DNA from: a virus
Lineage: Duplodnaviria; Caudoviricetes
Virus record (IMG/VR): IMGVR_UViG_3300006917_000003
Location: 1-58,644 of that record
Length of the DNA stretch: 58,644 bases
Direction: 5' to 3' (one strand)
The notes under the pieces were generated by a model. It worked only from the letters and a program-made list of their open reading frames with translations, had not been told where the DNA came from and ran no database searches. The position numbers and the translations under genes are program-made. Below, piece by piece: positions 1,430 to 54,969 of this stretch (its first letter is position 1; every line of letters starts with the position of its first letter).

Positions 1430-2086
1430 CTACAGGCCGTACAGGTTCGCCCCCGGCATGATGCCAGCCATGGCGTGGCCACCACCAGTGGTGGTGTCGA
1501 TGTACATGCCGCCGCTCAGGGCGTAGTTGCCCGAGACGGGGACGTAAGCGCCGCTGCTGCCCGGGAGCAGCTTCTGCACGCCTTCCTTGACCTGCGTACC
1601 AACCGAGTCGTCGATCGCCTTGAAGACCGACAGCGCGATCGTGACCTTGGCCACGTCCTTCACCATCTGGTTCTTCATGTACTTGTGCGCGAGGAACGCA
1701 GCACCAGCGACCAACAGGTTCGGGGTGACCTTGCGGAGCGTCTCGTTCTGGATGGTGTTCGACAGGTACTTGTCAAACACGGCCTGACCGATCGAGCCGA
1801 GCGCGATGGTCGCCAGCGAGCCGACGCCCACGTTCACCAGATTGACGCCACCAAAATCGACGCCGCCGATCGACGGGTTGCGGCGCTTGCGGCGGTACGA
1901 GATCGGGTTGCGGCGCTTGTGGCTGCGCTTCGGGTTGGCCCGCTTCTTGCGGCGCGGGTTGGCCATGAGTGCCGACAGGCTGCGGTGCTTGCGCTTCGCG
2001 CCGTGGCGCTTCTTGCCACTGCGCTTCTTGCGCGGGTTGGCGACGAGGGTGCCGTGCGAGCGGCGAGCAGACAGACGCTTGATCAT
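1430..2086 (-). CDS. Basic DNA-condensing/core-membrane virion protein with repeated NP motifs (218 aa)
   Basis: Very R/K-rich N-terminus with VANP, MANP, RANP, RRNP, RRNP, then hydrophobic segments; lies directly upstream of the capsid genes. Confidence 0.65.
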   Translation of the reverse strand: MIKRLSARRSHGTLVANPRKKRSGKKRHGAKRKHRSLSALMANPRRKKRANPKRSHKRRNPISYRRKRRNPSIGGVDFGGVNLVNVGVGSLATIALGSIGQAVFDKYLSNTIQNETLRKVTPNLLVAGAAFLAHKYMKNQMVKDVAKVTIALSVFKAIDDSVGTQVKEGVQKLLPGSSGAYVPVSGNYALSGGMYIDTTTGGGHAMAGIMPGANLYGL

Positions 2087-2195
2087 CGTTCGACCTCTTG
2101 GAAAGGAGGAGAGCAAGCCGCTCTCACGACGTGCAAGCTACGCACACTTTGCAGGACGAATCAAGTGTCAAGTGAACGCGGGTTCACTTTTTGGG

Positions 2196-20129: not shown

Positions 20130-21044
20130 ATGGCTGGACGACCCTTGCGACGGATGCGCCTGCGGAACCCTGAGACGCGGCAGTGGATTGAGTACGTCCC
20201 CGGCTTGCCCAACGACACCTTCGTGTCTTACGGTGGTCCCAACTTCAAGCCCGAGCGCAAGAAGCTGCACAAGAAGATCTTGCAGCAGGTCCTGAGCGAC
20301 TGCACCAAGGACAAGAAAAAGCAGGCCATCATGACGATGGGCGGCCCCGCTTCGGGCAAGTCGTTTGCGCTGAAGTCCTTGGACACCAGCGGCTTTGTCC
20401 ACATCGACAGCGATGCGATCAAGGGCCTCTTGCCCGAGTATCTGGTGGCCATTGAAGCCCATGCTCGCAACGCCGCTTCGATGGTGCATGACGAGTCGAG
20501 CGAGTTGGCCGAGGCCGCACTGGCGACGGCGATCCAGCGCGGTTGCAATCTGGTCTACGACGGCACGGGCAAGAACGCCGCCAAGTACGCACGGATCATC
20601 GACCAGTTGCACGACGCTGGCTACTCTGTGCGGCTGATCTACGTCCATGTGGACCCCAGCGTTGCAGTGCCCCGGGCGCTCGACCGCGCCGAGCGGTCAG
20701 GTCGCTACGTCCCCGACTACGTCATCCAAGAAGCCTACGCCAGCATCCCGTACAACTTCGCGGAGATCGCCAACCGCGCCGACGCTTGGACGCTGTTCGA
20801 CACCACCGAGACGCCTGCGCGGCTGGTCGCGTCCAAGGAGTCGCACCAGCGCCCGCAGGTGTTCAAGCCCATGCTGCTGGAGTCGTTCGTTTCCAAGTAC
20901 CCGCAGAAGGCTGAGTTGAAGCTCAACCCGCGCCGCAACCCTGTCCGCAACCCCGTGCAGATCGACGCCAAGGCGTTTGAGCAGGCCCTGTCGAGCTACC
21001 TGCGCTCGCGCAGCGCCGACGACGGCGACACTGGCCTGAGCTAG
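20130..21044 (+). CDS. Zeta-toxin-like P-loop kinase
   Basis: GGPASGKS, DSDAIK..LPEY, VHDESS, NLVYDGT, GY.V.LIYV, RAERSGRYVP. Confidence 0.8.
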   Translation: MAGRPLRRMRLRNPETRQWIEYVPGLPNDTFVSYGGPNFKPERKKLHKKILQQVLSDCTKDKKKQAIMTMGGPASGKSFALKSLDTSGFVHIDSDAIKGLLPEYLVAIEAHARNAASMVHDESSELAEAALATAIQRGCNLVYDGTGKNAAKYARIIDQLHDAGYSVRLIYVHVDPSVAVPRALDRAERSGRYVPDYVIQEAYASIPYNFAEIANRADAWTLFDTTETPARLVASKESHQRPQVFKPMLLESFVSKYPQKAELKLNPRRNPVRNPVQIDAKAFEQALSSYLRSRSADDGDTGLS

Positions 21045-21871: not shown

Positions 21872-23656
21872 ATGGCAGGCCGTCGCAACCCCAATGCCTA
21901 CACCCAGCGCAACCCGCGCCAACCCGCGCAGAAGGCGTGGGTCGCCAAGTACCCGCAGAGCCACTTCGATCACCCGCCTGCGATGGCGGGAGAGACGCGC
22001 ACGCACTTCAACTTGCACACGGGCGGCTACACCATCGACGCCAAGAAGCCGGAAGGCTGGCGAGCGCGTGACAAGAAGGCCATGTCGGTGGTCATGCTGG
22101 GGGCGACGTTTGAGTACGCCCCCGCTGGCCACCGAGAGTACAGCGAGGGGCCAAAGGCTGGGCGGCGCAACGTCCATGCTTGGGTGTACGGTCAAGAGAG
22201 CCTTGAGCAGGTCGATCTGTCGAAAGGCTGGCGACCGTGCCGCTACAGCCAAAACCCGCCCTGCTTCGTGGACATGCAGACCAAGCAGTGCCTGCCCAAC
22301 GACCGCTCGATCGACGTCTACTTGGGCAGCAAGCCAAATGTCGAGTACACGATCGCGACTCGCAAGAGCAAGCCCGACGTGCTTGCCGTGTTCGACACCG
22401 CGCAAGAGGCCGAGCAGGCGCTGCGTGCTGGCGGCTACCCCGCCAAGGCGTTCGTGCTGCGCCGGTCCAAGCCATCCAAGTACGAGCATGGCAAGGCCGT
22501 ACCGTGGGCACCCACCATGTTTTGGCGACCCTCTGCTGCCAAGGTCCGCAACCCCGACGCGATGCTGGAAGCTATCGAGAGGGAGAACTTGCGAGCAGCA
22601 GAGCAGCTTGCAAAGCACAACTCGCGAGAGCTTGCGGTTCTTGCGAGCATCGCACGCGAGTCCGGCTGGGACGTCGAGCGGCTGACCTCTTCCGCGCAAG
22701 CCTTCACGCGGGAAGGCTCGCGGCTCTTCGTCATGCAGCGAGGCAAGGGATGGTACGTTGAAGTCGGACCCGTGCTTGACCCCACACAAGCAAAGCGCGG
22801 CTACTATGGCGGCACCGTTGCCCGCGTGCTTGAAGGGCCGGACGGCAAGCGGGTGCATGTGTCGAGGCGTGCAGCCTTCCGCACTGCGGCCAAGTTCATG
22901 CGATTGAACGCCACCAAGGTCCGCAACCCCTACATCGACAAGTTCATCCCACCGGGGGGCAAGGGCTACCAATACGTCTACAGCGAGGAGGACGTGGCCC
23001 TGCGCCACGCCAAGAAGGCCCAACGCATCGAGGCGCTCAAGCACAAGGAAGCCCAGTTGCGCCAAGCCATCGAGCGCGACGTGGCCAAGGGCGACGACAC
23101 CGCGCTGGCGGCGGGGCTGATCTTGGCCACCTACGAGCGCCCCGGCAACCCCGAGTCTGCCAAGGAGGGCCACTACGGAGTGACCGGCTGGGAGTGCCGC
23201 CACCTGTCGGTGGACGGGCGCAAGGCCGTGATCGACTACATCGGCAAGAGCGGCGTCCACCAGACCAAAGAGGTGGACAACCCGACGCTGGTGCGGGCGC
23301 TCTCCCGCAAGGCCAAGGGTTGCACGCGCCGGGGCGGCAAGCTCATGCGAGTGTCAGCGTCTGCGGTCAATCGCTACCTCGATAGCTTTGACATTAGCTC
23401 CAAAGATCTTCGCACCTTTGGTGCAAACACTGAAATGCAAAAGGAACTTCGCCTCGCACGTCGCGCCGGGCCTGACCTGAGCACGCTCAAGTCTAGGGAC
23501 GTGAGGAGGGTGCTCAAGGCCGAGTTCAACGCGGCGCTAGGCGTCGTAGCCGGTCGGCTGGGACACACCACCAGCGTGCTCCGCAAGCAGTATCTGGTGT
23601 CAAGCATCGAGCCTACCTACTTGGAATCTGGCTCGATTGTTCAGACCTTTGCGTAA
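21872..23656 (+). CDS. Multi-module protein with C-terminal DNA topoisomerase IB
   Basis: From 22921: YQYVY, ERPGN (R), GKSG (K), SKDLRT (K/R), LGHT (H), RKQYL (Y), the Top1B catalytic residues in order. Confidence 0.88.
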   Translation: MAGRRNPNAYTQRNPRQPAQKAWVAKYPQSHFDHPPAMAGETRTHFNLHTGGYTIDAKKPEGWRARDKKAMSVVMLGATFEYAPAGHREYSEGPKAGRRNVHAWVYGQESLEQVDLSKGWRPCRYSQNPPCFVDMQTKQCLPNDRSIDVYLGSKPNVEYTIATRKSKPDVLAVFDTAQEAEQALRAGGYPAKAFVLRRSKPSKYEHGKAVPWAPTMFWRPSAAKVRNPDAMLEAIERENLRAAEQLAKHNSRELAVLASIARESGWDVERLTSSAQAFTREGSRLFVMQRGKGWYVEVGPVLDPTQAKRGYYGGTVARVLEGPDGKRVHVSRRAAFRTAAKFMRLNATKVRNPYIDKFIPPGGKGYQYVYSEEDVALRHAKKAQRIEALKHKEAQLRQAIERDVAKGDDTALAAGLILATYERPGNPESAKEGHYGVTGWECRHLSVDGRKAVIDYIGKSGVHQTKEVDNPTLVRALSRKAKGCTRRGGKLMRVSASAVNRYLDSFDISSKDLRTFGANTEMQKELRLARRAGPDLSTLKSRDVRRVLKAEFNAALGVVAGRLGHTTSVLRKQYLVSSIEPTYLESGSIVQTFA

Positions 23657-43657: not shown

Positions 43658-43789
43658 CTAGCGCCGCTTGCGCGACTTGACGTTCAGGCCCTTGTACACA
43701 GCGTAGGCCAGTCCAGCAAGGACTACCACGCCAGCCACGGTCAGGCCGACGTTGCGGGTGGAGATGTATCCGTTGGTCGAGTGCATCAT
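43658..43789 (-). CDS. Small membrane protein (43 aa, not in the ORF track)
   Basis: MMHSTNGYISTRNVGLTVAGVVVLAGLAYAVYKGLNVKSRKRR. Confidence 0.6.
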   Translation of the reverse strand: MMHSTNGYISTRNVGLTVAGVVVLAGLAYAVYKGLNVKSRKRR

Positions 43790-43791
43790 GG

Positions 43792-44226: not shown

Positions 44227-44229
44227 GGC

Positions 44230-44871
44230 TTACTCCCCCTTCTGGTTCAAGAGCCACAGCAGCCCGCCTGCGATAGCCAGAGCAGCCAAACCGCCGCCGC
44301 CCTCTTCCTTCTTCGGTGGCGGGGGTGGAGGCGTGGCGGCGGGTGTCTTTGCTGGTGCCGCCGTGCCGATCGCATTGAACGTGGCGTCGGTCACCTGCTT
44401 GTCTTCACCCTTGGACAAGGGCAGAAGATCGACAGGGTCTTGCGGGCCAGCGAAGAGGCGCGAGAAGCGGTCGCTCTTGTTGGCTTGCGTGATCAGTACG
44501 CCGTCCGCGCCCTCGTAGAACATCCACTGGTTGGGCGCAGTCGGGGCAGACTCGATGATCCAGTTGCCGTTCTTGCCCGGGATCTTGACCACGTCAGCGG
44601 CCTTGTCGTACCCCAGCAGGTCAGCAGCCTGCTTGATCGAAAGCTCGCCCTCGTAGATGCGAACTGGCGTGCCCTTCTTGAGCGTCTTGGGCTGACCCAC
44701 GGCGTTGGTCAACAGGTCGCTGACGTACTGAACGTCCACGTCAACGGGCAGGTAGCCGTTTCGCCACTTGAGCTTGCCCGACTTGGTCGCAAACTGCGGC
44801 GCAGGCTCCACTGGGGCACCCGCCAAGAAGTGTTCGTCTTCGCTATCGTCTCCGATGCCAAACATGCTCAC
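44230..44871 (-). CDS. Virion membrane protein, paralog of 44868..45482
   Basis: GKLKWRNG / KKGTPVRIY.G shared with its neighbour; Pro linker, GGGG and TM. Confidence 0.75.
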   Translation of the reverse strand: MSMFGIGDDSEDEHFLAGAPVEPAPQFATKSGKLKWRNGYLPVDVDVQYVSDLLTNAVGQPKTLKKGTPVRIYEGELSIKQAADLLGYDKAADVVKIPGKNGNWIIESAPTAPNQWMFYEGADGVLITQANKSDRFSRLFAGPQDPVDLLPLSKGEDKQVTDATFNAIGTAAPAKTPAATPPPPPPKKEEGGGGLAALAIAGGLLWLLNQKGE

Positions 44872-45482
44872 TCCTTGCTGCCAAACAGCGCCAGCGCCCC
44901 GATGCCCAAGAGCGCCAAGAGGCCGACGCCACCGCCGCCCTTGTCGCCCTTGTCGCCGTCTTTCGTACCCGAACTCTTGCGCTTGGGCTTGCCAGCAGCA
45001 TCGAGCACCGGGAACCCTTGGGCGTCGACCTCGTAGACGGCGGGGTCGAACATGCCCTGCGCGTTGGCCGCGTTGTCGGTGGTGCCAGCCTTGTCGATCG
45101 GCAGCAAGTCCTTGGGGGCGAGCTTGGCCGACAGCATCCGCTTGCGGATGGTGGGCAGAGCCGCCGCGTAAGCAGGCGAGGACATGAGCGCCTGCGCCTC
45201 TGGGGTGTCAGGGTAGGCTGCCCAGTAGCCGCCGCCCGCAAGCTCGACCAAGTACTGGTCGTTGGTGGGGCTTTGGATCGTAGCTTGATCCGTCCACGGG
45301 ATGGTGCCCACATACACGCGCACGATGGTGCCCTTCTTGATCACCGTGTCCGGCTCCGCGCCGCCCCAGTTGGGCAGCGTCTTGGCGGGCGTATCTTCAG
45401 CCACGACGCCGTTCGACCAGCCGAACTTGCCGACGTTGAACTTGGTGCCTGTCGTCGCTTCGCCGTTGCCTGCCAGCATCAT
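44868..45482 (-). CDS. Virion membrane protein
   Basis: Start revised (MMLAG); GKFGWSNG / KKGTIVRVY.G; C-terminal TM. Confidence 0.75.
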   Translation of the reverse strand: MMLAGNGEATTGTKFNVGKFGWSNGVVAEDTPAKTLPNWGGAEPDTVIKKGTIVRVYVGTIPWTDQATIQSPTNDQYLVELAGGGYWAAYPDTPEAQALMSSPAYAAALPTIRKRMLSAKLAPKDLLPIDKAGTTDNAANAQGMFDPAVYEVDAQGFPVLDAAGKPKRKSSGTKDGDKGDKGGGGVGLLALLGIGALALFGSKE

Positions 45483-45808
45483 CACACACCCCGCTTGGCC
45501 AAGCACCACGCCTCGACGGCGGGGATCGGCCCTGAGAACTTGGCCACCTGCTCACCTTGCGCTGCCCAGCCGCCGCCTTCTTTGGCGAAGGTACGCACAG
45601 GCCGCACGGTGGTATAGTACCCCGCATCTCCCTTGCCCACCAGCCCCCAAAAGTTGTGACCGAGGGCGTAGCGCCCCCAGCCAGACTTGGCGGCTGCCTC
45701 TGCCAAGCACTGCTTGGGGTCGAGGCCGTAGCGCGGGCACACGGTGGCCGCAGCGGGCACCAGCGCCCGCAGGAACGCCTCCTGCTGCTGGCGGGTGGGC
45801 TGGTTCAC
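45482..45808 (-). CDS. GH73/FlgJ-like glucosaminidase domain, short and possibly inactive
   Basis: FL..L.PAA....YGL.P...LAEAAAKSGWG...NFWGL; Lys where the catalytic Glu of ESGWG is expected. Confidence 0.6.
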   Translation of the reverse strand: MNQPTRQQQEAFLRALVPAAATVCPRYGLDPKQCLAEAAAKSGWGRYALGHNFWGLVGKGDAGYYTTVRPVRTFAKEGGGWAAQGEQVAKFSGPIPAVEAWCLAKRGV

Positions 45809-46656
45809 TTGCTGCCCTTCTTGAGCAGGGCAGGCCCAAAGGTGACCGCAGCGTAGATGACCGCGCCCCACAAGAGGTACTTGGTCAGTTCGCCAAAGGT
45901 GCCGCTGAACGACTTGGCGATGTTCTCTTCTGCGTCCTTCTTGAAGATCGGGGCCTTGGTGGCCAGCTTGGCGCTACCGCGCTCCCGCAGCAGCTTGATC
46001 AGCCGCGCAGGCGCACCAGCCTTTACCAACGCCTTGAAGGCGTCGTCGTACTGGTTGCCGTAGGAGTGGTCGCCACAGCCTTGCGGAGGGTCGGCCTCCA
46101 GCACGGGGGCCGTCCACCACTTCTTGACCGACGAACCAAAGCCGAGGTCATCCTCAGACGGCGTGCCGTTGAGCCAGTGGTTGATCGTGCAACGCTCCCA
46201 GCCCTTGGGGTCGAGGTAGTAGTCCACCTCCACCATCGTGGCCAGAATCATGGGGCCGTCCAAGGCCATGGGCAAGTCAGTGCCTTGAGCGCGGCTTTGG
46301 CCTGCGTACTCAGGCGACTGCGCCTTGGCCCGCGCCTCTGCCCACTGCTGCTCCAGCACTTCGGCGCGGCCCTCTGGGGTCGTGCCCTCTGGGGGGTTTA
46401 CTGCACCAGCCTGCACGCCAGCCAGCGACCCGCTCAGGGGCACAGCCCGTGACACCAAAGGTGCCATGCTGGGCGTCTGCGCGGCTTCGCGCAGGTAGTA
46501 GGGCTGCTCGCCCACCGTGGGGTTCAGCGGGGCAAGACGGGGCAGGACGACGGCGCGGTTGGCGTAGGTCGAGTGCGGGGTGGTGTAGCTGCGGTAGTTG
46601 TACGGGTCGCCGCACTCGCAGCCGCTCAGGGCGTAGGGGTCGTCGTGCAGCATCAT
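45805..46656 (-). CDS. Virion membrane protein
   Basis: C-terminal YLLWGAVIYAAVTFG TM. Confidence 0.72.
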   Translation of the reverse strand: MMLHDDPYALSGCECGDPYNYRSYTTPHSTYANRAVVLPRLAPLNPTVGEQPYYLREAAQTPSMAPLVSRAVPLSGSLAGVQAGAVNPPEGTTPEGRAEVLEQQWAEARAKAQSPEYAGQSRAQGTDLPMALDGPMILATMVEVDYYLDPKGWERCTINHWLNGTPSEDDLGFGSSVKKWWTAPVLEADPPQGCGDHSYGNQYDDAFKALVKAGAPARLIKLLRERGSAKLATKAPIFKKDAEENIAKSFSGTFGELTKYLLWGAVIYAAVTFGPALLKKGSK

Positions 46657-46665
46657 GGTGGCACC

Positions 46666-47043
46666 TTACTTGCGGGAGCCAAAGTAGTAGCCCACCGCCA
46701 GACCTACCACGAACAGTGGGATCGAGATCGTCATCACCGACTTCTGGACGCTGCCCTTGACCGTCTCGATCGTCTCTTGGCCCTTGGGCGAGGCGACGAA
46801 CTTCTGGCCGGTCTTGCTCAGTACGTCGGAGAAGAACTCCGTGCGATCCGCACGCTCCTTCGATCCGGCAGGGCCACCTTGGATGGTCTTGTTGATCGCC
46901 TCTGCAAGGGCGTTGGCGATCGGGTCGCCGCCCAGCGGGTCACCCGGGCCAGCCAAGTTGCCCGCCATGTAGCCACGCGGGAAGTTGGTGCGCGGAGGGG
47001 CTTGGGCAGGCCCAAGGATCTCGACGTAGTCAGGCTGGATCAT
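46666..47043 (-). CDS. Virion membrane protein
   Basis: C-terminal ISIPLFVVGLAVGYYF-GSRK. Confidence 0.72.
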   Translation of the reverse strand: MIQPDYVEILGPAQAPPRTNFPRGYMAGNLAGPGDPLGGDPIANALAEAINKTIQGGPAGSKERADRTEFFSDVLSKTGQKFVASPKGQETIETVKGSVQKSVMTISIPLFVVGLAVGYYFGSRK

Positions 47044-47993
47044 CGCTTCTCCCCTTGCATGACGTAGCCGACGAACGCGGCAGGGTCAGTGATGTGCGGC
47101 ATGTGGCGGCGAACGTAGCGCATCTTCTTGCGGAAGGTGTCAGCGCCGGCCCTGTGCATGGTCTGGATCAGGTGTCGCTTACCCGCCTTGGTCAGGCCGG
47201 GGTTCTGCTTGGCCGACTCACGCTTCTTGCTGTACTCGTCAGCCGCCTGCTTGGCCTTCTCTGCCGCGTGCTTGGCACCCGCGCCGGCTGCGCGAGCCAG
47301 CGAGTGGACGCTCGCCCGCACCGTCTCCGACCGCCCATAAGCGTAAGCGCCGCCGGCCAAGAGCGCGGTGGTGAGCCACGTCGGGTTGCGCTTGGGGTTG
47401 CGACGATAGGGCGCTGACACCGACGTGTAGCCCAGCCGCTTGTTGGCCGACACCTTGTCGGCCCACTCCTTGGCACCCTCGTAGGTGGCAAACTTCAACT
47501 CGCCAGTGTAGTCGCCGGAAAGCCACCTAGTCGTCTTGCCAAGGTCTTGGACGTATGTGACCGCCCACGGGTAGATACGCTTCATCGCTTCATCGTATTC
47601 GTCGTAGTCGGGGTTGCGGTGCTTGGCATCGCGCTTCTCGACCAAGTGCGCCACCGGCAGGCCCACGGCCTCGCGGCGCTCGATCTCGCGCTCCAGCGAG
47701 CGGCCGGGGTTCTTGCGGGTCTTGAGGGCGTACACCTTGCGAACTCGGCTCTCGATCTCTGGCCAGCGCGAGGCAGCCACGCCCAAGTCGGCGGTCCGGC
47801 CAAGGTACACGCTATCGGTGGAGTCGCCCACCCTGCCGGGATGCGGCAGGAACACATACCAGCCGCGATCGTCGCCGTGCCGGCTGTCGTTGCCGATGTA
47901 GCCAAAGGTGATGCCGGGGAGTTCCTTGGACAGGTGCCCGATGGCGTCACTCAGCGAGGCGAGCGACGAGGGGTTGCGCTTGTACTTGGACAT
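47040..47993 (-). CDS. Basic multi-module protein with six NP motifs
   Basis: KRNP, RKNP, HRNP, RRNP, KRNP, KQNP; GAGGA RBS. Confidence 0.78.
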   Translation of the reverse strand: MSKYKRNPSSLASLSDAIGHLSKELPGITFGYIGNDSRHGDDRGWYVFLPHPGRVGDSTDSVYLGRTADLGVAASRWPEIESRVRKVYALKTRKNPGRSLEREIERREAVGLPVAHLVEKRDAKHRNPDYDEYDEAMKRIYPWAVTYVQDLGKTTRWLSGDYTGELKFATYEGAKEWADKVSANKRLGYTSVSAPYRRNPKRNPTWLTTALLAGGAYAYGRSETVRASVHSLARAAGAGAKHAAEKAKQAADEYSKKRESAKQNPGLTKAGKRHLIQTMHRAGADTFRKKMRYVRRHMPHITDPAAFVGYVMQGEKR

Positions 47994-48012
47994 GGTCTTC
48001 CTCGCTGTCGGC

Positions 48013-49623
48013 TCAGTAGTCGTTCGCCTCGTAGCTCATGTATCTGGGCTTGAATCCCGCCTTGAGCGCAGCGAGATACTCCTTGAGCGTCTTGCCGTGG
48101 GCCTTGGCTTCCAGTTGGAAGGCCACCAACCCGGGATCAGGAGGCGATGCAGTGATCCAATCTGGCTTGTCTGCTGGCTTCAAGGTGAAGCGGGTGGCGT
48201 CCTTGCCACCATAGGAGCCTCCCCGACCGACCTTGTCTGCCTTGGTGCGCGCCGTAAGCTCGTTGACCGGCTTGTCAAACTCCAGCCAATTATCATCCCA
48301 GCCAAGGTAATCGCTTACTTTCCAACTACTAGCCTTGCCAAGATCTCGTTTGGGCGGCACCTTGGCCTCTCCACCAAAGGAGAAGCCGTAAGCCAGCGGG
48401 GGGTTCTTGCGCTTGCGGGACTTGGTGTACCCAACGTGGGCGTGAAGGGGCAACTGCCAGCGGTGCTTGGCGAGCTTGACGGCGCAGGAGGTGACGGCAC
48501 GGGCCGGCGGCGGGGGAACGTGCCACCGCTTGCCGATCAGGATGGTGCCGCACTCGCTGACCGACCGCGACGGCTCGGCGTCGAACAGCGACTCCTGCCG
48601 CTTGGACGCCTTCTTCTTGCCGTTGCGCTGCAAGCCGCCCATGGCGCGGTGCCACGCGGGGGTCATTTCGCCGCTGGGGGCGACAAACGGGATCTGCACC
48701 GACGTGTCCCAGCCGTCTTTGCTGCTGAACTGGATGGTGTGGTCACCCACTTTCGTCACCGTGTACTTGCCGACCTTGGAGCCGACACGCAGCGGCTTGG
48801 TGTCCATGGCGTGTGCAAGCACAGCCTCTTGAAGCGTGGCGGGGTTGCGCTGGAAGCCCACCATGCTCGCGCTGGGGTTCTTGCTGGTGGCATAGTGCCG
48901 CTTCACCCACGCGGACACCGCTGCCTTGGCGGCGGCCTTCGTCGCGTGTTTGTGTGAGTCAACCGTCTCCCAAGGCGTCCAAACGCCAGACACCGCCTCG
49001 CAGCGATCAGCATGGTAGCTACCGCCCTCTCGGATGATGCGTGCCGCACCCAAGATCCCGCCTTTGCCGCGCTCGATGTAGGCGACCTCAATGCTCGCAG
49101 GAGCACCAGCCGGCGTGTGCCACTTCGTCAACTTGACGCTTGCGGGGTTGCGCTGGAAGCCCACCATGTGCGCGGTGGGGTTCTTGGCGATCCAGTTGCG
49201 CGGGGCCTCCTTGAGGACGGCCCGAATCACCACGTCGCCGGTCTTGCCGCCGGTTTCGCGCAGGTGGATCTTGTCGCCCGACCACCGTGCGATGCCGCTG
49301 CCGCCCATGTAGTTGCCGCTCAGGGTGTCGCCGTCGCTGGTCAGCAGCTTGCTGCTCGCCGCACGGTGCTCGGTGAACGCACGAATGACCGCCTTGTCGG
49401 TCTTGGTCAGGCTCGGGTTGCGCTGGAAGCCCACCATGCTCGCGCTGGGGTTCTGCGTCGTGTAGCGCATCGAGGCCATCGCCACGATCTTGCCGCTCTT
49501 GCCAGCCTCGGCCTTGGCCTCCTTGAGCGTCGTGCAGTAGCACTTGCGAGCGCCCGTGGGCGACAGGACGAGGAACTTGAACCCGTCGCGGGCGGCTTTC
49601 TTGTCGGCAGAAGTCAGGTGCAT
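48013..49623 (-). CDS. Multi-module protein with repeated NPxAxMVGFQRNP linkers
   Basis: Three linker copies plus RKNP separate unrelated segments; AAGGAG RBS. Confidence 0.8.
   Translation of the reverse strand: MHLTSADKKAARDGFKFLVLSPTGARKCYCTTLKEAKAEAGKSGKIVAMASMRYTTQNPSASMVGFQRNPSLTKTDKAVIRAFTEHRAASSKLLTSDGDTLSGNYMGGSGIARWSGDKIHLRETGGKTGDVVIRAVLKEAPRNWIAKNPTAHMVGFQRNPASVKLTKWHTPAGAPASIEVAYIERGKGGILGAARIIREGGSYHADRCEAVSGVWTPWETVDSHKHATKAAAKAAVSAWVKRHYATSKNPSASMVGFQRNPATLQEAVLAHAMDTKPLRVGSKVGKYTVTKVGDHTIQFSSKDGWDTSVQIPFVAPSGEMTPAWHRAMGGLQRNGKKKASKRQESLFDAEPSRSVSECGTILIGKRWHVPPPPARAVTSCAVKLAKHRWQLPLHAHVGYTKSRKRKNPPLAYGFSFGGEAKVPPKRDLGKASSWKVSDYLGWDDNWLEFDKPVNELTARTKADKVGRGGSYGGKDATRFTLKPADKPDWITASPPDPGLVAFQLEAKAHGKTLKEYLAALKAGFKPRYMSYEANDY
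48842..49452 (-). repeat. Three 38-bp direct repeats (48842-48879, 49145-49182, 49415-49452) encoding the linker
   Basis: gggttgcgctggaagcccaccatg(ct/tg)cgcg(c/g)tggggtt; the outer two copies are identical. Confidence 0.92.
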
Positions 49624-49679
49624 GGTCGTCTCCTTGAGCGTACTCTACAGCGGAAAGTTCAAGTGCGCCAGATGGGATC

Positions 49680-50066
49680 TCACTGGTGCAGGTGCTTGGG
49701 TCGAGGTGCGCGGCCCCGGTCGAGGTTCTGCACGTCGCGCTCGTCGTACAGGATGGGTTGGCCCAGCGCCTCAAACGCCAGCCGGTCGGCCCGCCGCTCC
49801 GCGCCACGGCGGTCAGAGTGCTCGTCGGCGGCGTGGCCAAGCTCATGCGCCAAGATGCCCGCCACGCGGCCTTCGGGCTGCTCTAGCAGCCGCTCGACAA
49901 CGTACACGGTGCGCTCGTCGGGGATGTACCAGCCAAAGTCGCGGTAGCCGCTGCGGGGCAGGTAGTGGCGATCCACCACCACCAGCCGCACGTCGCCCAC
50001 CGGGAACCGCTGTGCGAAGCGTTTCCGCAGGCGCAGGAACAGCCTGTGCGCCCCGGCCCGGGTCAT
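49680..50066 (-). CDS. Small zinc metallopeptidase-like protein (HExxH)
   Basis: ILAHELGH...AERRAD; start revised. Confidence 0.65.
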   Translation of the reverse strand: MTRAGAHRLFLRLRKRFAQRFPVGDVRLVVVDRHYLPRSGYRDFGWYIPDERTVYVVERLLEQPEGRVAGILAHELGHAADEHSDRRGAERRADRLAFEALGQPILYDERDVQNLDRGRAPRPKHLHQ

Positions 50067-50068
50067 GG

Positions 50069-50512
50069 TCAGTCCCGCAGAGCGAAGAACGCGGCAGCGG
50101 CGATGCCCACAGGCAACAGCCAGCCCATGCCGCCCTTGTCCTTGCCAGCGACGTAGTTGTCCAGCGCCTTCTTGACCGCATCGCGGAACGCCGTGGCGCT
50201 CTCGACCGTCCAAGCCGCGCCCATGGCAGTGGCCTTCTGGGTGTCGTAGTCGGCCTGCTTCAGCGCACCCGCAGTGATCAGCGTGGCAGCGTAGCCGTCA
50301 GCTTCCGCGATGATAGCGGGGATCGGATCGTAGAAGGTGGGCTTGATCCCAAACTTCACTTGCGCTTCTGACTGCGAGACGGTCTGCTTCTCGGGGGTCT
50401 TGAACTCGATCTCCTTCTGGATCTCAAGGGCCGACTTCTCGCTCGTCTTCTTCGGAGGAGCGCCCGCCAAAGCGTGGCTGTAGGAACCGTAGTTGTCACC
50501 TTCAAGCATCAT
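50069..50512 (-). CDS. Virion membrane protein
   Basis: Start MMLEG; C-terminal WLLPVGIAAAAFFAL. Confidence 0.72.
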   Translation of the reverse strand: MMLEGDNYGSYSHALAGAPPKKTSEKSALEIQKEIEFKTPEKQTVSQSEAQVKFGIKPTFYDPIPAIIAEADGYAATLITAGALKQADYDTQKATAMGAAWTVESATAFRDAVKKALDNYVAGKDKGGMGWLLPVGIAAAAFFALRD

Positions 50513-50520
50513 TGGGAACC

Positions 50521-53448
50521 TCACTTCTTGCTCTGGGAGTATGCCACAGCGCCGCCAAGGAGCAACCACAACCACGGGAAAGGCTTCTTTTCTTCTTCGG
50601 AGATAACGAGCTTTGTCGCCACCTCTTCGTTCTTCTTGATCGTCTCCGATACAGCGGGAGGGATTGGCAGATTGTAGTCTTGGCCCAGCGCCTGCAATGC
50701 TTCGCCGGATCCAGCAACGTAGTCAAGGGCGTTTTCCACCTGCTCCTTGGTCTTGTCGTTCTGCTCCTTGGTCTCCTCGGCCTTCGCTTTCTCCTTGTCG
50801 GGCATGAGCGGGACGACGACGATCGTGCCGCCGCCAAGGTTGAGGCTGATCTTGTCGTCCTTGTGCTTGCGAGCCTCCCCCAAAGCCTTGCTCGACAGGT
50901 CCAAGTTCGACAGCACACCGCCCTTGTCGGTGGTGTTGTCTAGCAGACGGTTGCGCCGCGCACCGCGCAGACTGGCAAGCGCCGCCATCTTGGCCTGCAA
51001 TTCGCTAATCTTTGCCGACACGGCGTTGAGTGCGGCAATCGCCGTCTGGTCGCCCGCGTCGACTCGCTCCTTGAGCTTGGCGTACTCCACCAGCAGTTCG
51101 TTGAGCTTGTAGGCCAGCGAACCCTTCTTGGGATTCTTGGCGCACTCGGTCATGGTCTGCTTGTAATAATCGAGCTTGGCTTGCGGGTCGGTCAGCGTCT
51201 TGGGCGGGTCGGGGATGCTGCACCCGTACAGTTCGATTGCCATGTCGTTGAGCGCCACGATCATGTCCTCGGACAAGTCTTGAGACTCGCTTGCCAACTG
51301 CGAGGCCATCATGCCCAAGAGCAGTTGAGACTTGACCTCGCTCCGCGCATCAACATACGCCTTCTGCGGCTCGGTCAGTCCAGCCGTCTGAGCCTTGGCC
51401 TCTTCGGTAGCCTGCTTGTGCAGTTCCATCACCTTGTCGGCCACCAGCTTGAAGCCAAGCGGTATCGGCATGGGTTTGCTCTTGTCAGGCTGCCACGCAT
51501 AGAGCTTGGCCACGTTGCCACTCAGCTTGCTTGCGCGGGGTGGGGTGAACACTTTACCTGCAAAGAAGTCGGCCTTTTCGCTAATGGTAACAGCCATCTC
51601 TAGCTGCTTCTTGGTGTAGGTGGGGACAACGATGCTCTCGACCGGCCACGCGCCCATCATCTCCAGCAGCTTGTCTGGGTCTAGCTTCTCGCTGCCAAGG
51701 CAGTCCTTGTTGATCTGGGCAACACGGGATTGGAAGTTGGCGTAAGCAGTGGTGCCTTTGACTTCGGAGTACCACTTGTTCACCAGCAGCGTCAGCTTGG
51801 GTGCTACATCGGTGATCACCTTGCCTGACGGGGTCGTGTACGGTTCGTAGGTCCAGCCGACCTCCATCGGGGGCAAGAAGCAGACGAACTCAATCGCTGC
51901 CACCAGCATATCCCGGGCAGTCTTGACCTTGGCCCACGGGCCACCCTCTTCCTTGACGATGGGGTAGGTTGGCTTGTTGGGGTCGGTGTTGTCCTTCTTG
52001 GCGTAGAGAGAGGCTTGCATCAGCGTGAGGCGTTTGGCGTCTTGTGCAATGCGAATCAAAGGCAGAATAATGTCGGCCACTTGGTGAGGCGTTTTGGCAA
52101 CGCCGCCATACTCGCTTGACCACTCGGGATCTTCAGACAGGCCCTTCCAGATGAACATACCCAGCGTCTTTTCGGAGTACAAGCGATTGGTCTCGTCCTC
52201 GAACGGCGGGTGGAAAGCGGGTGGGCAAGCCCCCTTCTCTGGGCAGACCGGGATCTTGGCTCCCGGCTGCTTGGTCTTGAAGGCGTCCACGAACGGCTTC
52301 CCGCCGATACGATCCCACTGGTGGTGCAAGAAGTCGGCCAGAGCAATCGACGGCTCGATGTACTCGGCGTTTGCGCTCGCGGCCAGCTTCTCGTAGCCGA
52401 TCGATGCGACCGGCACAGACAGCCCGGGGAGCGTCTCGCCCCACTTGTCAGCCGGCACGTCCCAGCCAGAGCCTTGCACAGCTGAAAGCGTACCAGAGAA
52501 GAGAGGGTTGGTGGTCACGACCACGTTGGCGTCGCTGCCCTTGTAGGCGTACAGCGAGTGCAGCTTATAGTCGGCCAAGCCCGGGACGCTTGCACCGTAA
52601 ACTAGCGCCTGCTTGTTGCCGCTAGGGTTGTACTGCAAGTAGGGCATGTAGAGATCGGCAATCGGGAACTCCAGCGAGTCCACGCTCACCATCTTCTTGG
52701 CGTCTTGATCGTACTGCTGAATCGTGATCGGCTTTGCGACCTTGGGGTCGCATGCGACAGGGCCAAGCCACTGCACAGCGTTGATCTTGCTGAACGCCTC
52801 CGACAGCAGGAAGCCGATCCCGCCAGCTTCGCCAGCAACGGTCACCTGCGCCTTCATGTACTCAACTTCAGCCGCCTTCGCGTTCTTGACCAGCGTAGGG
52901 ATGCTCGATACCACGTTGCGCCAAGTGTCGCCAGTCAGCGACCCCTTGGGCGGGAGCCACGACAGCGTCTGGTCCACCAGCTTCTGAACCTGCGCTTGGG
53001 TGCCGTTCGGCCCCGGGTAGTCTTGCCAGTTGCAAGCCAGCGCGTAGACGAGGTTGAGAAGTTCCCAGCACCGCAAGCGGGTCTGGAACGCCAGCAGGTC
53101 AAACGCCCGCTTGTCGGCGGCTTCAGACACGATGCCGTAGAGGTCAACGCCCGGGGCTTGGCCGCTCTTCTGCGTCAACGGATTGAAGGGTGCAAGGTAC
53201 TTGGCCAGCGACACTGCCGACAGTGCCTGCATGGCCTTGGGCGAAAGCACGGCTGCCAGCTTGGCTGCATCCTCGGGCTTCAAGCCAGTCGGCAGGGCGT
53301 CGGGTGTCGAAAGGATCTCCTTGCCACCGATCGGCAAGTAGGTGTCGTACACGTCCTTGACGACGCCGCCTGCGCCAGCACCTGCGTCTGCGCCCTTGCC
53401 CCCGGGGGGCAAGCCGTTCAAGTTCCCCTCGTTGTTGAACAGCAACAT
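50521..53448 (-). CDS. Large (975 aa) membrane-anchored virion protein
   Basis: AGGAG RBS; C-terminal coiled coil and KKPFPWLWLLLGGAVAY TM. Confidence 0.78.
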   Translation of the reverse strand: MLLFNNEGNLNGLPPGGKGADAGAGAGGVVKDVYDTYLPIGGKEILSTPDALPTGLKPEDAAKLAAVLSPKAMQALSAVSLAKYLAPFNPLTQKSGQAPGVDLYGIVSEAADKRAFDLLAFQTRLRCWELLNLVYALACNWQDYPGPNGTQAQVQKLVDQTLSWLPPKGSLTGDTWRNVVSSIPTLVKNAKAAEVEYMKAQVTVAGEAGGIGFLLSEAFSKINAVQWLGPVACDPKVAKPITIQQYDQDAKKMVSVDSLEFPIADLYMPYLQYNPSGNKQALVYGASVPGLADYKLHSLYAYKGSDANVVVTTNPLFSGTLSAVQGSGWDVPADKWGETLPGLSVPVASIGYEKLAASANAEYIEPSIALADFLHHQWDRIGGKPFVDAFKTKQPGAKIPVCPEKGACPPAFHPPFEDETNRLYSEKTLGMFIWKGLSEDPEWSSEYGGVAKTPHQVADIILPLIRIAQDAKRLTLMQASLYAKKDNTDPNKPTYPIVKEEGGPWAKVKTARDMLVAAIEFVCFLPPMEVGWTYEPYTTPSGKVITDVAPKLTLLVNKWYSEVKGTTAYANFQSRVAQINKDCLGSEKLDPDKLLEMMGAWPVESIVVPTYTKKQLEMAVTISEKADFFAGKVFTPPRASKLSGNVAKLYAWQPDKSKPMPIPLGFKLVADKVMELHKQATEEAKAQTAGLTEPQKAYVDARSEVKSQLLLGMMASQLASESQDLSEDMIVALNDMAIELYGCSIPDPPKTLTDPQAKLDYYKQTMTECAKNPKKGSLAYKLNELLVEYAKLKERVDAGDQTAIAALNAVSAKISELQAKMAALASLRGARRNRLLDNTTDKGGVLSNLDLSSKALGEARKHKDDKISLNLGGGTIVVVPLMPDKEKAKAEETKEQNDKTKEQVENALDYVAGSGEALQALGQDYNLPIPPAVSETIKKNEEVATKLVISEEEKKPFPWLWLLLGGAVAYSQSKK

Positions 53449-53456
53449 GGCGGCTC

Positions 53457-54113: not shown

Positions 54114-54114
54114 A

Positions 54115-54969
54115 CTACCGCCCGTGCAGCTTGGCGGCGGCGTCCTTCATGCTCAGACGCTCGCCGTCGATCACGGCGTAGCCCTTGGACAGCTTACGCA
54201 CGCGGTGGGAGCCAGCCTGCACCGTCTTGCCGATCGGCAGTCGGGAAAGCATCGAAGCGAAGATCTTCTCCTCTTCCTTCTCATGGGCGAGGTGGGATTT
54301 GGACATGCCGTTGCGCTTCTTGGGATTCAGCACAGCCGGGACGTAGCGCGGGTCGGGGTTGCGGCTCTTGTAGCCGATGGCTTCGTAGACCTGCGCTTTG
54401 GTCATGCCACCCTTGAGGTAGCTCTTCCAGCACGACTCGTAGTAGTCCCGCTTGATGTCGCCAGAGTAGCCACGGGACAGCTTGCTCTCCTGCTCGTTGA
54501 TCGCGGCCCGCACGACAGCCCGGTCTCCAGCGGACGGCTGGTTGAGCGGATTCTGGCTCATGTACCGTTCGGCTTCAAACTTGCTGACCACCCCGCGCCG
54601 TTGCAGGTACGCCAGCGCCGCATTGAATCGCTCTCGGGCGTAGGTGTCGCGCTTGAGGAAGTCCCGCATGGCCTCGCCTTGGCGGCGACTCTGGGAAAGG
54701 GTAGTCAGCGCGTTTCGCGCCTCCTGCAAGGCTACACGGGGATCTAGACGCTCAATACGCTCCCAAGAGTACTCGATGCCAGTCTTGGTAGGGTTGCGGC
54801 GCTTCTTGGGGCCGCAGTGCGGGTTGCCGCACGCGCCCGCGCAGCCGCAGCCGCCGTTGCGCTTCTTGGTCTTGCGGAACTTGAAGCCGCCTTCCACCTG
54901 TTTGACCTCCGCGATGGAGTCGCACTGGTAGGCTTGGCCGTTGGGGCTGTGGGCGATGAACTTGGCCAT
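54115..54969 (-). CDS. Basic multi-module protein with NP/NG motifs
   Basis: KRNG, RRNP, SQNP, SRNP, VLNP, KRNG. Confidence 0.75.
   Translation of the reverse strand: MAKFIAHSPNGQAYQCDSIAEVKQVEGGFKFRKTKKRNGGCGCAGACGNPHCGPKKRRNPTKTGIEYSWERIERLDPRVALQEARNALTTLSQSRRQGEAMRDFLKRDTYARERFNAALAYLQRRGVVSKFEAERYMSQNPLNQPSAGDRAVVRAAINEQESKLSRGYSGDIKRDYYESCWKSYLKGGMTKAQVYEAIGYKSRNPDPRYVPAVLNPKKRNGMSKSHLAHEKEEEKIFASMLSRLPIGKTVQAGSHRVRKLSKGYAVIDGERLSMKDAAAKLHGR

What the first reader, a model, noticed from the sequence alone, without database searches (positions are those of the whole stretch)
48013..49623. Beads-on-a-string polyprotein with DNA-level conserved 38-bp linkers
Seen: three 38-bp repeats encoding NP(S/T)A(S/H)MVGFQRNP, spaced 303 and 270 bp apart (both multiples of 3), separate unrelated ~80-90 aa modules; the outer copies are identical even at synonymous sites. 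Inference: an in-frame cassette array within a gene, where the repeat is both recombination substrate and processing/targeting signal. This is the clearest example of the NP system.
Basis: partly seen in the sequence, partly recalled or inferred. Interest (0 to 1): 0.86.

Follow-up and report, generated by a model that had tools for sequence, protein, structure and literature searches.

The report
Asn-Pro punctuated cassette polyprotein in phage
A freshwater virus strings unrelated small protein modules into single genes, always separated by an Asn-Pro "punctuation mark" and placed next to a tiny zinc protease. Related viruses carry the same modules reshuffled exactly at those marks, which suggests a little-known way for phages to package and exchange accessory proteins.

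Summary
ORF 48013-49623 (minus strand, 536 aa) carries three 39-45 nt in-frame repeats, 303 and 270 nt apart, encoding NP[ST]A[SH]MVGFQRNP. The outer two are identical over 40 nt. The modules between them are not similar to each other.

Relatives confirm a cassette array. Cutting 56 NP-rich metagenomic proteins at every Asn-Pro gave 115 module clusters in many orders. Near-identical relatives differ by whole modules inserted or lost exactly at NP. Contigs from two other studies lose homology to the window exactly on NP codons. Module 2 also occurs as a stand-alone protein.

NP is selected at protein level: synonymous codons vary, and it is in frame 63 of 70 times. "MVGFQR" is only one of at least three inter-NP linker types.

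The upstream gene is a minimal zinc metallopeptidase (HExxH + ExxxD, selecase-like fold). It lies upstream of the array in three loci, is conserved near it on a fourth contig, and is fused in frame to NP arrays in six relatives.

Cleavage at NP is inferred, not shown. The closest known kind is the "polyvalent proteins" of phages. The strict dipeptide punctuation and junction-precise shuffling did not turn up in my literature searches.

The parts
48013..49623 (-). Array gene (P0001, 536 aa): six modules M1-M6 joined by NP-bounded linkers
   Evidence: Open frame. GC3 0.83. Homologues. No Pfam, PHROG or NCBIfam family.
49447..49623 (-). M1 (res 1-59), the module found only at the N-terminus; ends in QNP
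   Evidence: Conserved in P0002-P0006 and P0009 (alignment A1). Cluster C0 is in first position in all 29 of the 56 array proteins that carry it.
49414..49452 (-). Linker copy nearest the gene's 5' end: NPSASMVGFQRNP (res 58-70)
   Evidence: A contig of run X7 holds this linker alone, between unrelated sequence.
49177..49413 (-). M2 (res 71-149), a widespread phage domain (DKxVIxAF...WMGG...APxNW)
   Evidence: Most of the 399 phmmer hits are to this module. It stands alone in 78-180 aa proteins. The AF2 core has pLDDT 88-97 with an alpha-beta4-alpha fold. No functional fold match.
49144..49182 (-). Middle linker copy: NPTAHMVGFQRNP (res 148-160)
48874..49143 (-). M3 (res 161-250), a module with no detected relative among the array proteins
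   Evidence: Singleton in the module clustering.
48841..48879 (-). Third linker copy: NPSASMVGFQRNP (res 249-261); 40 nt identical to the first copy
48619..48840 (-). M4 (res 262-335), ending in a decayed linker MGGLQRNG (48619-48642)
   Evidence: M4 recurs in P0012, where it ends in ERNP, and in P0070, P0151, P0028 and P0136. The decayed repeat is family D2.
48400..48618 (-). M5 (res 336-408), ending in KRKNP
   Evidence: Matches P0136 and P0028. NP at res 407-408.
48016..48399 (-). M6 (res 409-536), the C-terminal module
   Evidence: 65-67% identical to the C-terminal module of P0011, where it follows a different (transmembrane) module after RKRKGKRKNP.
49683..50066 (-). Minimal zinc metallopeptidase (128 aa from ATG 50066), directly upstream of the array
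   Evidence: Pfam Peptidase_M48 at 6.7e-5, 23.2 bits against a cut-off of 20.3; phrog_87 metalloprotease. H74, E75, H78, E90 and D94 are invariant in 8 of 8 sequences. AF2 pLDDT 93.3. Best PDB matches are selecase, abylysin and jannalysin. Fused to NP arrays in P0156-P0160 and L002.
47040..47993 (-). Second NP array gene (317 aa, 6 NP), directly downstream
   Evidence: NP map. Its modules match P0030, P0011 and P0156-P0160. The homology breakpoint of X7 and X23 contigs at 47204 is the first base of its Asn264 codon.
54115..54969 (-). Third NP array gene (284 aa, 5 NP)
   Evidence: Its module at res 54-141 is 70% identical to a module that lies inside M1-arrays P0016 and P0005.
21872..23656 (+). 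NP-punctuated protein (594 aa, 7 NP) ending in a type IB topoisomerase domain
   Evidence: PF01028 at 8.3e-16, res 380-573. NP map.
20130..21044 (+). P-loop kinase (zeta/PezT-like, weak) flanked by NP motifs (res 13; 266-275)
1430..2116 (-). Protein with a very basic N-terminal run of five NP motifs

Best explanation
The ORF is one of several in-frame cassette arrays in a 58.6-kb freshwater virus. An array is a single gene that strings together independent small protein modules of about 50-150 aa. Every junction is marked by the dipeptide Asn-Pro, usually within a basic or short conserved linker.

The 39-nt repeat is one linker class: an inter-NP peptide [ST]A[RSH]M[VL]G[FLMY]QR. Its copies are kept identical by recent duplication or gene conversion.

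Related viruses draw on a shared pool of modules and exchange, insert or lose them exactly at the NP marks.

The most likely purpose of the mark is proteolytic processing. A minimal zinc metallopeptidase is encoded directly upstream, and in six relatives it is fused to the N-terminus of such arrays. It is proposed to cut the exposed NP linkers and release the modules as separate accessory proteins, making this a polyprotein strategy.

Shown here: the array architecture, the shuffling at NP, protein-level selection on NP, and the protease linkage. Inferred: that NP is cleaved, by this protease, and what the modules do. The confidence given is for the whole statement including cleavage; the cassette-array part alone I hold at about 0.9.
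For: Architecture:
- Three in-frame repeats and six mutually dissimilar modules.

Shuffling:
- Cutting 56 NP-rich relatives at every NP gave 247 segments of at least 25 aa in 115 clusters, 35 of them multi-member, arranged in many orders. P0082 versus P0090 and P0019 versus P0020 are examples.
- P0015, P0016, P0005 and P0006 share near-identical first and last modules and differ by whole internal modules.
- P0156 and P0157 have the same ends, with five extra modules in P0157.
- A module of gene 54115-54969 lies inside M1-arrays elsewhere.

Breakpoints:
- Of 1481 internal BLAST HSP endpoints among 59 array proteins, 35.5% lie within 3 residues of an NP boundary. The null is 11.2%, with a maximum of 13.4% in 200 randomisations. 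The median distance is 6 against 20.7.
- A contig of run X7 matches 46000-47204, then only the linker 49413-49452, then M1 and the protease. Runs X7 and X23 both break at 47204, the first base of an Asn codon of QNP.
- X23 breaks at 49444, straight after M1-QNP-S, and continues with LNVRNP.

Protein-level selection:
- The 70 NP in the window use 7 codon pairs. AACCC falls in frame 0, 1 and 2 at 63, 6 and 1 times.
- NP is observed 70 times against 26 expected in the proteome, and 335 against 39 in the array proteins, where it is the top dipeptide.

Module termini:
- Stand-alone M2 proteins begin and end within a few residues of the NP marks of M2.
- The linkers have low pLDDT (54-59) beside a confident core.

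Protease:
- HExxH + ExxxD are invariant in 8 of 8 sequences. Pfam M48 is above its cut-off. The fold is selecase/abylysin-like.
- It lies directly upstream of the array in the window, L002 and L003. On the X7 contig it lies about 110 nt beyond the conserved M1.
- All 5 'longer' homologues, plus the L002 ORF, are N-terminal protease fused to an NP array.
Against: - No cleavage was observed, and none can be with these tools.
- Zincins generally disfavour Pro next to the scissile bond (recalled knowledge), so an NP-specific zincin would be unusual.
- A more distant protease homologue (L006, 40% identity) has no NP array beside it. The protease family therefore has other uses.
- Some modules are transmembrane segments, which fits a tethered protein as well as a released one.
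- The array set was collected by similarity to P0001, so M1 and M2 are over-represented. The NP enrichment is partly circular, because those proteins were chosen for being NP-rich.
- Module functions are unknown.
Confidence: 0.5

Rival explanations
1. The arrays are never cleaved and act as multi-domain 'beads on a string' polyvalent proteins. Asn-Pro-containing basic linkers are simply the junctions that tolerate recombination: a helix cap or breaker in a flexible spacer. Selection would then leave only recombinants joined there.
For: - Polyvalent proteins such as N4 vRNAP, ArdC and TraC1 are reported to be delivered full-length despite carrying a metallopeptidase domain (passages of PMC5512222).
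- The linkers are predicted to be flexible.
- Some modules are membrane anchors.
Against: - A generic flexible linker does not need one invariant dipeptide. NP is 8.6x over expectation, while no other X-Pro or Asn-X dipeptide stands out.
- NP persists across linker classes and across clades in which the flanking residues change.
- NP also flanks single-domain proteins and sits 4-14 residues from N-termini.
- Tandem NPs only 4-11 residues apart are hard to explain as spacers.
Confidence: 0.24
2. NP is a short linear docking or targeting motif rather than a cut site. It could load modules into the virion, a membrane or an export route, or bind a host factor.
For: - The arrays lie in an operon with a muramidase and many tail-anchored membrane proteins.
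- NP-containing leaders occur at several N-termini.
- M1 occurs only at the N-terminus, like a leader.
Against: - Two residues carry little binding information.
- The motif sits at both ends of every module rather than once per protein.
- The recurrent fusion to a peptidase is not explained.
Confidence: 0.1
3. The Asn-Pro bonds cleave themselves through Asn cyclisation (asparagine peptide lyase chemistry), as in FlhB/YscU NPTH, reovirus mu1/VP5 and RsgI. The protease would have another role.
For: Asn|Pro is the scissile bond in RsgI, and the same chemistry is cited there for VP5/mu1 (passages of PMC10328401). NPTH autocleavage papers were seen in a search listing only.
Against: - The known cases need a conserved folded context around NP. 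Here the context differs at each junction and the linkers are low-confidence and flexible.
- Uncatalysed Asn-Pro cleavage is slow, on a scale of weeks (recalled: Geiger and Clarke 1987).
Confidence: 0.07
4. The repeat or NP codons are a DNA-level site for a site-specific recombinase, for example the phage's tyrosine recombinase or type IB topoisomerase. The peptide would be a by-product.
For: - The outer copies share 40 nt of identical DNA.
- The phage encodes an integrase-like protein and a Topo IB domain.
- CCC is somewhat preferred for Pro in NP: 41 of 70 (about 59%) against 39% genome-wide.
Against: - All synonymous NP codon pairs are used. AAT is not depleted (7 of 70 against 6% genome-wide).
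- The motif is almost only in frame 0 of the coding strand (63:6:1).
- The linker classes differ completely in DNA.
Confidence: 0.05
5. The gene is a simple tandem duplication, or a repeat-domain protein whose units have diverged.
For: Three regularly spaced repeats.
Against: - The modules show no mutual similarity.
- Each module has its own separate set of homologues in other contexts.
- The unit lengths differ: 59, 79, 90, 74, 73 and 128 aa.
Confidence: 0.01

Closest known systems
Polyvalent proteins of phages and conjugative elements (Iyer et al. 2017, PMC5512222; passages read via 'find')
   Same: - Many unrelated domains in one polypeptide of a mobile element, with architectures that vary between relatives.
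- A zincin-like metallopeptidase is the commonest associated domain and is proposed to release the domains.
- The authors draw an analogy to RNA-virus polyproteins.
   Different: - The modules here are small, and none of P0001's matches a known family.
- Every junction carries one invariant dipeptide (Asn-Pro), with a few stereotyped linker peptides.
- Close relatives differ by clean module indels at that mark.
- The peptidase is a 128-aa stand-alone or N-terminal minimal zincin.
- The word 'linker' does not occur in that paper's main text (0 occurrences), so no conserved junction motif is described there in those terms.
Viral polyproteins with a leader or embedded protease and consensus cleavage sites (picorna-, poty-, nidovirus type; established knowledge)
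   Same: One ORF, several products, a short consensus at each junction, and a protease encoded at the start of or beside the polyprotein.
   Different: - This is a dsDNA virus of (presumably) bacteria.
- The module set is combinatorial rather than fixed.
- The protease would be a zinc metallopeptidase rather than a Cys or Ser protease.
- Cleavage has not been demonstrated.
Minigluzincins (selecase, abylysin/projannalysin; PDB 4qhf, 4qhg, 4qhi, 4jiu, 4jix) and the M48 catalytic core. The family name is recalled.
   Same: - About 100-130 aa soluble HExxH peptidase.
- Best fold matches have probability 1.00 and TM 0.47-0.64.
- Pfam M48 hit above its cut-off.
   Different: - Viral, and linked or fused to substrate-like arrays.
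- The third ligand appears thermolysin-like (ExxxD).
- Sequence searches of the PDB find nothing.
Asn|Pro self-cleaving proteins: RsgI periplasmic domain (PMC10328401, passages), reovirus mu1 / aquareovirus VP5 (cited there), FlhB/YscU NPTH (search listing)
   Same: The same dipeptide marks a functional break in the chain.
   Different: Those have a single site inside a conserved fold. Here there are many sites in variable, flexible linkers.
Multi-core RiPP precursors such as the cyanobactin PatE type (recalled)
   Same: Conserved recognition sequences, conserved even at DNA level, flank swappable cassettes. There is an N-terminal leader-like element.
   Different: The cassettes here are folded domains of 47-147 aa (M2 core pLDDT 88-97), not 6-20 aa peptides. 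No modification enzymes were seen.
Pro-Pro endopeptidases (PPEP-1, M34). The specificity xNP|P is recalled; preprint 10.1101/2022.11.15.516584 was seen only in a listing.
   Same: A zinc metallopeptidase that reads Asn-Pro next to the scissile bond, with substrates carrying several repeated sites.
   Different: It belongs to a different peptidase family and needs Pro at P1'. Here S, R, A and T are the commonest residues after NP.

Membership tests
Polyvalent proteins (Iyer et al. 2017) | Several (2-15) unrelated domains in one polypeptide of a phage or plasmid | tested here: met
   Six mutually dissimilar modules in a complete virus record with direct terminal repeats.
Polyvalent proteins (Iyer et al. 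2017) | Domain architecture varies strongly among relatives | tested here: met
   115 module clusters in many orders among 56 proteins.
Polyvalent proteins (Iyer et al. 2017) | Zincin-like metallopeptidase in the same protein or neighbourhood | tested here: met
   Adjacent in the window. Fused in P0156-P0160 and L002.
Polyvalent proteins (Iyer et al. 2017) | Domains belong to known conflict-related families (ART, ParB, primase, RNases and so on) | tested here: not met
   No Pfam, PHROG or NCBIfam family for any module of P0001. Only other NP genes carry Topo IB and a weak zeta-like kinase.
Polyvalent proteins (Iyer et al. 2017) | Delivered with the DNA or packaged in the virion | not testable with these tools
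   No proteome data. Structural genes were not recognised among the ORFs tested.
Protease-processed viral polyprotein | Parts also exist as independent proteins | tested here: met
   M2 stands alone in 78-180 aa proteins whose termini match the NP marks.
Protease-processed viral polyprotein | Short consensus at every junction | tested here: met
   NP at all junctions except one decayed site (NG). 313 NP sites were profiled.
Protease-processed viral polyprotein | Cognate protease with intact catalytic residues | tested here: met
   H74, E75, H78, E90 and D94 invariant in 8 of 8 sequences. Model pLDDT 93.3.
Protease-processed viral polyprotein | Cleavage at the junctions actually occurs | not testable with these tools
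   Needs expression and mass spectrometry.
Asparagine peptide lyase-type N|P autocleavage | Asn-Pro embedded in a conserved folded context that positions the Asn | tested here: not met
   The flanks differ between sites. Linker pLDDT is 54-59.
2A / StopGo translational recoding | D(V/I)ExNPG|P consensus (recalled) | tested here: not met
   After NP the commonest residues are S 81, R 53, A 42, T 27, K 21, L 10 and D 10 of 313. Gly is not among the seven commonest residues at +1. The upstream residues are basic, not D-x-E.
Tandem-repeat domain protein | Repeat units are homologous | tested here: not met
   Best inter-module E-value is 0.07 in a 6-sequence database.
Minigluzincin / M48-like metallopeptidase (neighbour gene) | HExxH plus a downstream third ligand; compact alpha/beta zincin fold | tested here: met
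   Pfam M48 at 23.2 bits against a 20.3 cut-off. HELGH...ERRAD invariant. Foldseek probability 1.00 to selecase and abylysin.

The most novel reading that the evidence does not exclude
This would be a previously undescribed way for dsDNA viruses of bacteria to organise accessory genes: a 'protein-level operon with punctuation'. A shared pool of more than 100 small modules is traded between genomes and between genes as in-frame cassettes at a two-residue Asn-Pro mark. A dedicated minimal zinc metallopeptidase with a new, NP-directed specificity releases them. The short inter-NP peptides (MVGFQR, SLNVR) would serve both as homology patches for cassette exchange and as protease handles.
Probability: 0.35. 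Interest if true: 0.9.

Novelty: new variant of a known kind. Interest (0 to 1): 0.78.

Why it matters
If NP is a true processing mark, several things follow.

- It gives a simple sequence rule for splitting hundreds of unannotated phage 'hypothetical giant ORFs' into their real functional units.
- It points to a small protease with a rare specificity next to proline, which could be useful as a reagent.
- It shows that phages can exchange accessory or counter-defence modules without carrying promoters, ribosome-binding sites or stop codons for each one. That would be an in-frame analogue of integron cassettes.
- The same genome also uses the classical solution: a dozen small genes, each with its own copy of a promoter-leader unit. 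The two strategies can therefore be compared side by side.

Even if the arrays are not cleaved, junction-precise shuffling at one dipeptide is a clean natural example of domain shuffling caught in populations.

Tried and rejected
Searches that found nothing:
- INPHARED phages: no match to P0001 by tblastn, nor to 40000-58644 by megablast.
- IMG/VR scan with P0001 alone: none.
- IMG/VR scan for the back-translated MVGFQRNP pattern: 0 stretches.
- GTDB genome contigs with the M1 alignment: none, so there is no prophage or host clue.
- Metagenome contig scan with M1: only one short locus, L003.
- Rfam on 46500-50600: no family.
- Promoter/terminator scan of 46500-50700: 0 promoter-like sites and terminator-like sites at chance level.

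Structure and function attempts:
- A global MAFFT alignment of P0001 with 78 relatives (A2) misaligned the shuffled modules and was discarded as input for folding. I therefore made no whole-protein model. The Atlas's own model of P0001 has pTM 0.22.
- Complex prediction of the protease with linker residues 236-275: 'no answer'. This counts neither for nor against binding.
- M2 fold searches: no PDB match at E<=0.001. BFVD gave only uncharacterised phage proteins. The Atlas gave nothing usable.
- PDB sequence search with the protease profile: 0 hits.
- NCBIfam: nothing for the array genes or the protease.

Expression and population variation:
- No RNA holder was listed among the runs. X23 is labelled RNA-Seq but is probably DNA.
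- X5 and X6 contigs (99% or more identical) merely break at the three repeats, as expected for k-mer repeats. They show no copy-number variant.

Other points:
- The nearest cultured-type record by DNA polymerase (MW202816.1, 27% identity) is an ordinary myovirus by its annotation, which lists no similar array gene. I did not scan its sequence for NP arrays.
- Five searches for prior descriptions of NP-delimited arrays found none. Paper supplements were not consulted.

Rejected ideas:
- 2A-like recoding, because the motif does not match.
- Tandem duplication.
- An N-glycosylation sequon.
- A DNA-level site, on the codon evidence.
Full report
**What the window is.** The window is a complete IMG/VR virus record of 58,644 bp with direct terminal repeats and 64% GC. 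Runs that hold the stretch are recorded as freshwater or drinking-water metagenomes. Among the ORFs scanned, I recognised DNA polymerase I, primase/helicase, helicases, an exonuclease, an integrase-like recombinase, a type IB topoisomerase domain and an N-acetylmuramidase. I recognised no terminase, portal or major capsid protein.

**The observation.** ORF 48013-49623 on the minus strand (P0001, 536 aa) holds three direct repeats at 48839-48883, 49142-49186 and 49412-49456, spaced 303 and 270 nt apart. They encode QNPSASMVGFQRNPS, KNPTAHMVGFQRNPA and KNPSASMVGFQRNPA.

The outer copies are identical over 40 nt. With this genome's codon usage, two independent encodings of the 13-residue peptide would coincide with probability about 5e-5. 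The copies therefore share recent DNA ancestry or are homogenised by gene conversion.

A fourth, decayed copy (MGGLQRNG, 48622-48643) marks the next junction. In relative P0012 the same module ends in ERNP.

Cutting at the marks gives six modules: M1 (res 1-59), M2 (71-149), M3 (161-250), M4 (262-335), M5 (336-408) and M6 (409-536). They show no similarity to one another; the best E-value is 0.07 in a 6-sequence database. None matches Pfam, PHROGs or NCBIfam.

**The modules are cassettes.** Word-indexed searches found 17 relatives. An exhaustive phmmer search found 399 at E<=1e-3, 95 of them at E<=1e-10, and listed 150.

- M2 is a widespread domain. It stands alone in proteins of 78-180 aa and also lies inside proteins of over 2000 aa.
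- Stand-alone M2 proteins start (M-x-L-[ST]-x-x-D-K…) and end (…AP-x-N-W-x-x) within a few residues of the NP marks that bound M2 in the array.
- M4 recurs in P0012, M6 in P0011 behind a transmembrane module, and M5 in P0136 and P0028.
- Of the 155 proteins in hand, 55 or 56 are NP-rich (at least 3 NP and over 2.5x expectation). The count differs by one between because of rounding.
- Cutting 56 of them at every NP gave 247 segments of at least 25 aa, which fall into 115 clusters, 35 of them with more than one member.
- The architectures are combinatorial. P0082 and P0090, and P0019 and P0020, hold the same modules in different orders.
- M1 (cluster C0) is in first position in all 29 of the 56 array proteins that carry it. 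M2 (cluster C1) occurs first, internally or last.
- P0015, P0016, P0005 and P0006 share near-identical first and last modules but differ by whole internal modules.
- A module of another window gene (54115-54969) is 70% identical to one inside M1-arrays P0016 and P0005. Modules therefore also move between genes.

Caveat: this set was gathered by similarity to P0001, so M1 and M2 are over-represented.

**Breakpoints fall on Asn-Pro.** I ran full-length all-against-all BLASTP of 59 array proteins, leaving out P0101 (over 1200 aa). Of 1481 distinct internal HSP endpoints, 35.5% lie within 3 residues of an NP boundary. Random positions in the same proteins give 11.2%, with a maximum of 13.4% in 200 randomisations. 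The median distance is 6 against 20.7 residues.

Contigs of other public runs add independent evidence.

- In run X7 (drinking water), a 5089-nt contig matches 46000-47204, then only the linker 49413-49452, then M1 (49448-49587) and the protease (49682-50122). By its record coordinates, the 2.2 kb in between is replaced by about 1.2 kb of other sequence. About 0.3 kb of other sequence is also inserted between M1's QNP and the linker.
- Position 47204 is the first base of the Asn codon of QNP (res 264-265) in gene 47040-47993. X23 has a loose end at the same base.
- X23 also diverges at 49444, straight after M1-QNP-S, and continues (read on the minus strand) with LNVRNP, another linker class.

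**NP itself is the signal, and it is selected as protein.**

- The window's 72 likely genes hold 70 NP against 26 expected.
- They use seven codon pairs: AAC-CCC 37, AAC-CCG 16, AAC-CCT 9, AAT-CCC 4, AAT-CCG 2, AAC-CCA 1 and AAT-CCA 1. AACCC lies in codon frame 0, 1 and 2 at 63, 6 and 1 times.
- In the 59 array proteins NP is the most over-represented dipeptide, at 335 against 39.2 expected. There, 43% of all Asn are followed by Pro. This figure is partly circular, since those proteins were picked for NP richness.
- Over 313 NP sites, Arg precedes NP in 131. Position +1 is mostly S, R, A or T.
- In more distant arrays the preceding residue varies (…GWNP, …EGNP, …GDNP) while NP stays.
- Peptides between two NPs fall into classes: [ST]A[RSH]M[VL]G[FLMY]QR (this finding), S[LI]NVR (often doubled) and short basic runs. 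The same peptides also end proteins straight after the last NP.
- NP marks also flank single-domain proteins and lie 4-14 residues from several N-termini. Examples are a muramidase (MKRNP…), a P-loop kinase and a Topo IB fusion.

**The linked protease.** The gene directly upstream (128 aa from ATG 50066) hits Pfam Peptidase_M48 above its gathering score and phrog_87 'metallo-protease'.

- H74, E75, H78, E90 and D94 (HExxH…ExxxD) are invariant in 8 of 8 aligned sequences.
- Its AF2 model (pLDDT 93.3) best matches the minimal archaeal metallopeptidases selecase, abylysin and jannalysin (Foldseek probability 1.00, TM 0.47-0.64, E from 1.5e-3). The ArdC peptidase domain and Wss1 rank lower.
- The protease lies directly upstream of the M1 array in the window and in L003. 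On the X7 contig it lies about 110 nt beyond the conserved M1.
- In L002 it is fused in frame to an NP array that is followed by the M1 array.
- All 5 of 5 'longer' homologues (P0156-P0160, 249-697 aa) are N-terminal protease fused to an NP array, with the junction …LPENRPxGxMKRNP….
- One more distant homologue (L006, 40% identity) has no array beside it.

**Interpretation.** Four things are shown here:

- an in-frame cassette array;
- exchange of modules at NP;
- protein-level selection for NP;
- a recurrent physical link to an apparently active zincin.

It is inferred that the zincin cuts exposed NP linkers and frees the modules. Three points support this inference. Module termini coincide with the termini of stand-alone homologues. 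The linkers are low-confidence and flexible beside a confident core, with pLDDT 54-59 against 88-97. Tandem NPs only a few residues apart and NP-bounded tails are hard to explain otherwise.

The 40-nt identical linkers would also allow homologous exchange or deletion. Junctions that share only QNPS (about 12 nt) suggest that selection for in-frame, linker-located joints matters at least as much as homology.

**Rivals.** I considered five alternatives:

- uncleaved polyvalent proteins with permissive NP linkers;
- NP as a docking or targeting motif;
- Asn-Pro self-cleavage, as in RsgI (PMC10328401, passages), reovirus mu1/VP5 (cited there) and FlhB/YscU NPTH (listing only);
- a DNA-level recombination site, which the codon data argue against;
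- tandem duplication, which is refuted.

**Comparison with what is known.** The closest described kind is the 'polyvalent proteins' of phages and conjugative elements. There a zincin-like peptidase is the commonest domain and autoproteolytic release is proposed (PMC5512222, passages). That paper's main text does not contain the word 'linker'.

Five literature searches found no description of an Asn-Pro punctuated, junction-precise cassette system. Supplements were not seen.

I therefore file this as a new variant of a known kind. It would become categorically new if NP-specific processing is demonstrated.

Noticed in passing
window 43792-47043 and 50069-53448 (minus strand); also L002 and L003: Many neighbouring proteins end in a Gly-rich stretch, then one hydrophobic helix and a short basic tail (for example …GGGGVGLLALLGIGALALFGSKE and …WLWLLLGGAVAYSQSKK). 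They look like tail-anchored membrane proteins. No terminase, portal or HK97-type capsid protein was recognised among the ORFs scanned. The virus may be membrane-containing or otherwise unusual.
   Followed up: partly
window 34404-40887 (plus strand): At least 9 copies of a promoter-like unit TTGACAAGGAACGTCAG.TCTGCAATACT are followed by a conserved purine-rich leader ending …AGGAGGTGTGAGATG. Each copy lies in front of a small gene. This is a second, transcription-level way of modularising small genes in the same genome.
   Followed up: partly
window 21872-23656 (+): A eukaryote/poxvirus-type DNA topoisomerase IB catalytic domain (PF01028, 8.3e-16, res 380-573) follows three N-terminal modules separated by RNP marks.
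   Followed up: partly
window 20130-21044 (+): A P-loop kinase weakly resembles zeta/PezT toxins and phrog 'minor head protein/polynucleotide kinase'. It has an NP-containing leader and a C-terminal NPRRNPVRNP run.
   Followed up: no
window 1430-2116 (-): The N-terminal 80 residues are extremely basic and carry five NP marks (ANPRKKR…ANPRRKKRANPKRSHKRRNPISYRRKRRNP). A Gly/hydrophobic-rich domain follows.
   Followed up: no
window 48619-48642 (-): A decayed linker MGGLQRNG (NP changed to NG) lies between M4 and M5. If NP is needed for processing, these two modules would stay joined in this virus.
   Followed up: partly
window 1-1402 and 57195-58314 (-): There are two pairs of adjacent paralogous genes: 208 and 249 aa (both …L.PYA[RK]MTVV…), and 183 and 182 aa (both …Y.D.QSNP…). 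They have no family match and may be structural proteins.
   Followed up: no
L006 4863-5276: A more distant homologue of the minimal zincin (40% identity) lies beside integrase-like genes rather than an NP array. This hints at an ImmA-like or other role for the wider family.
   Followed up: no
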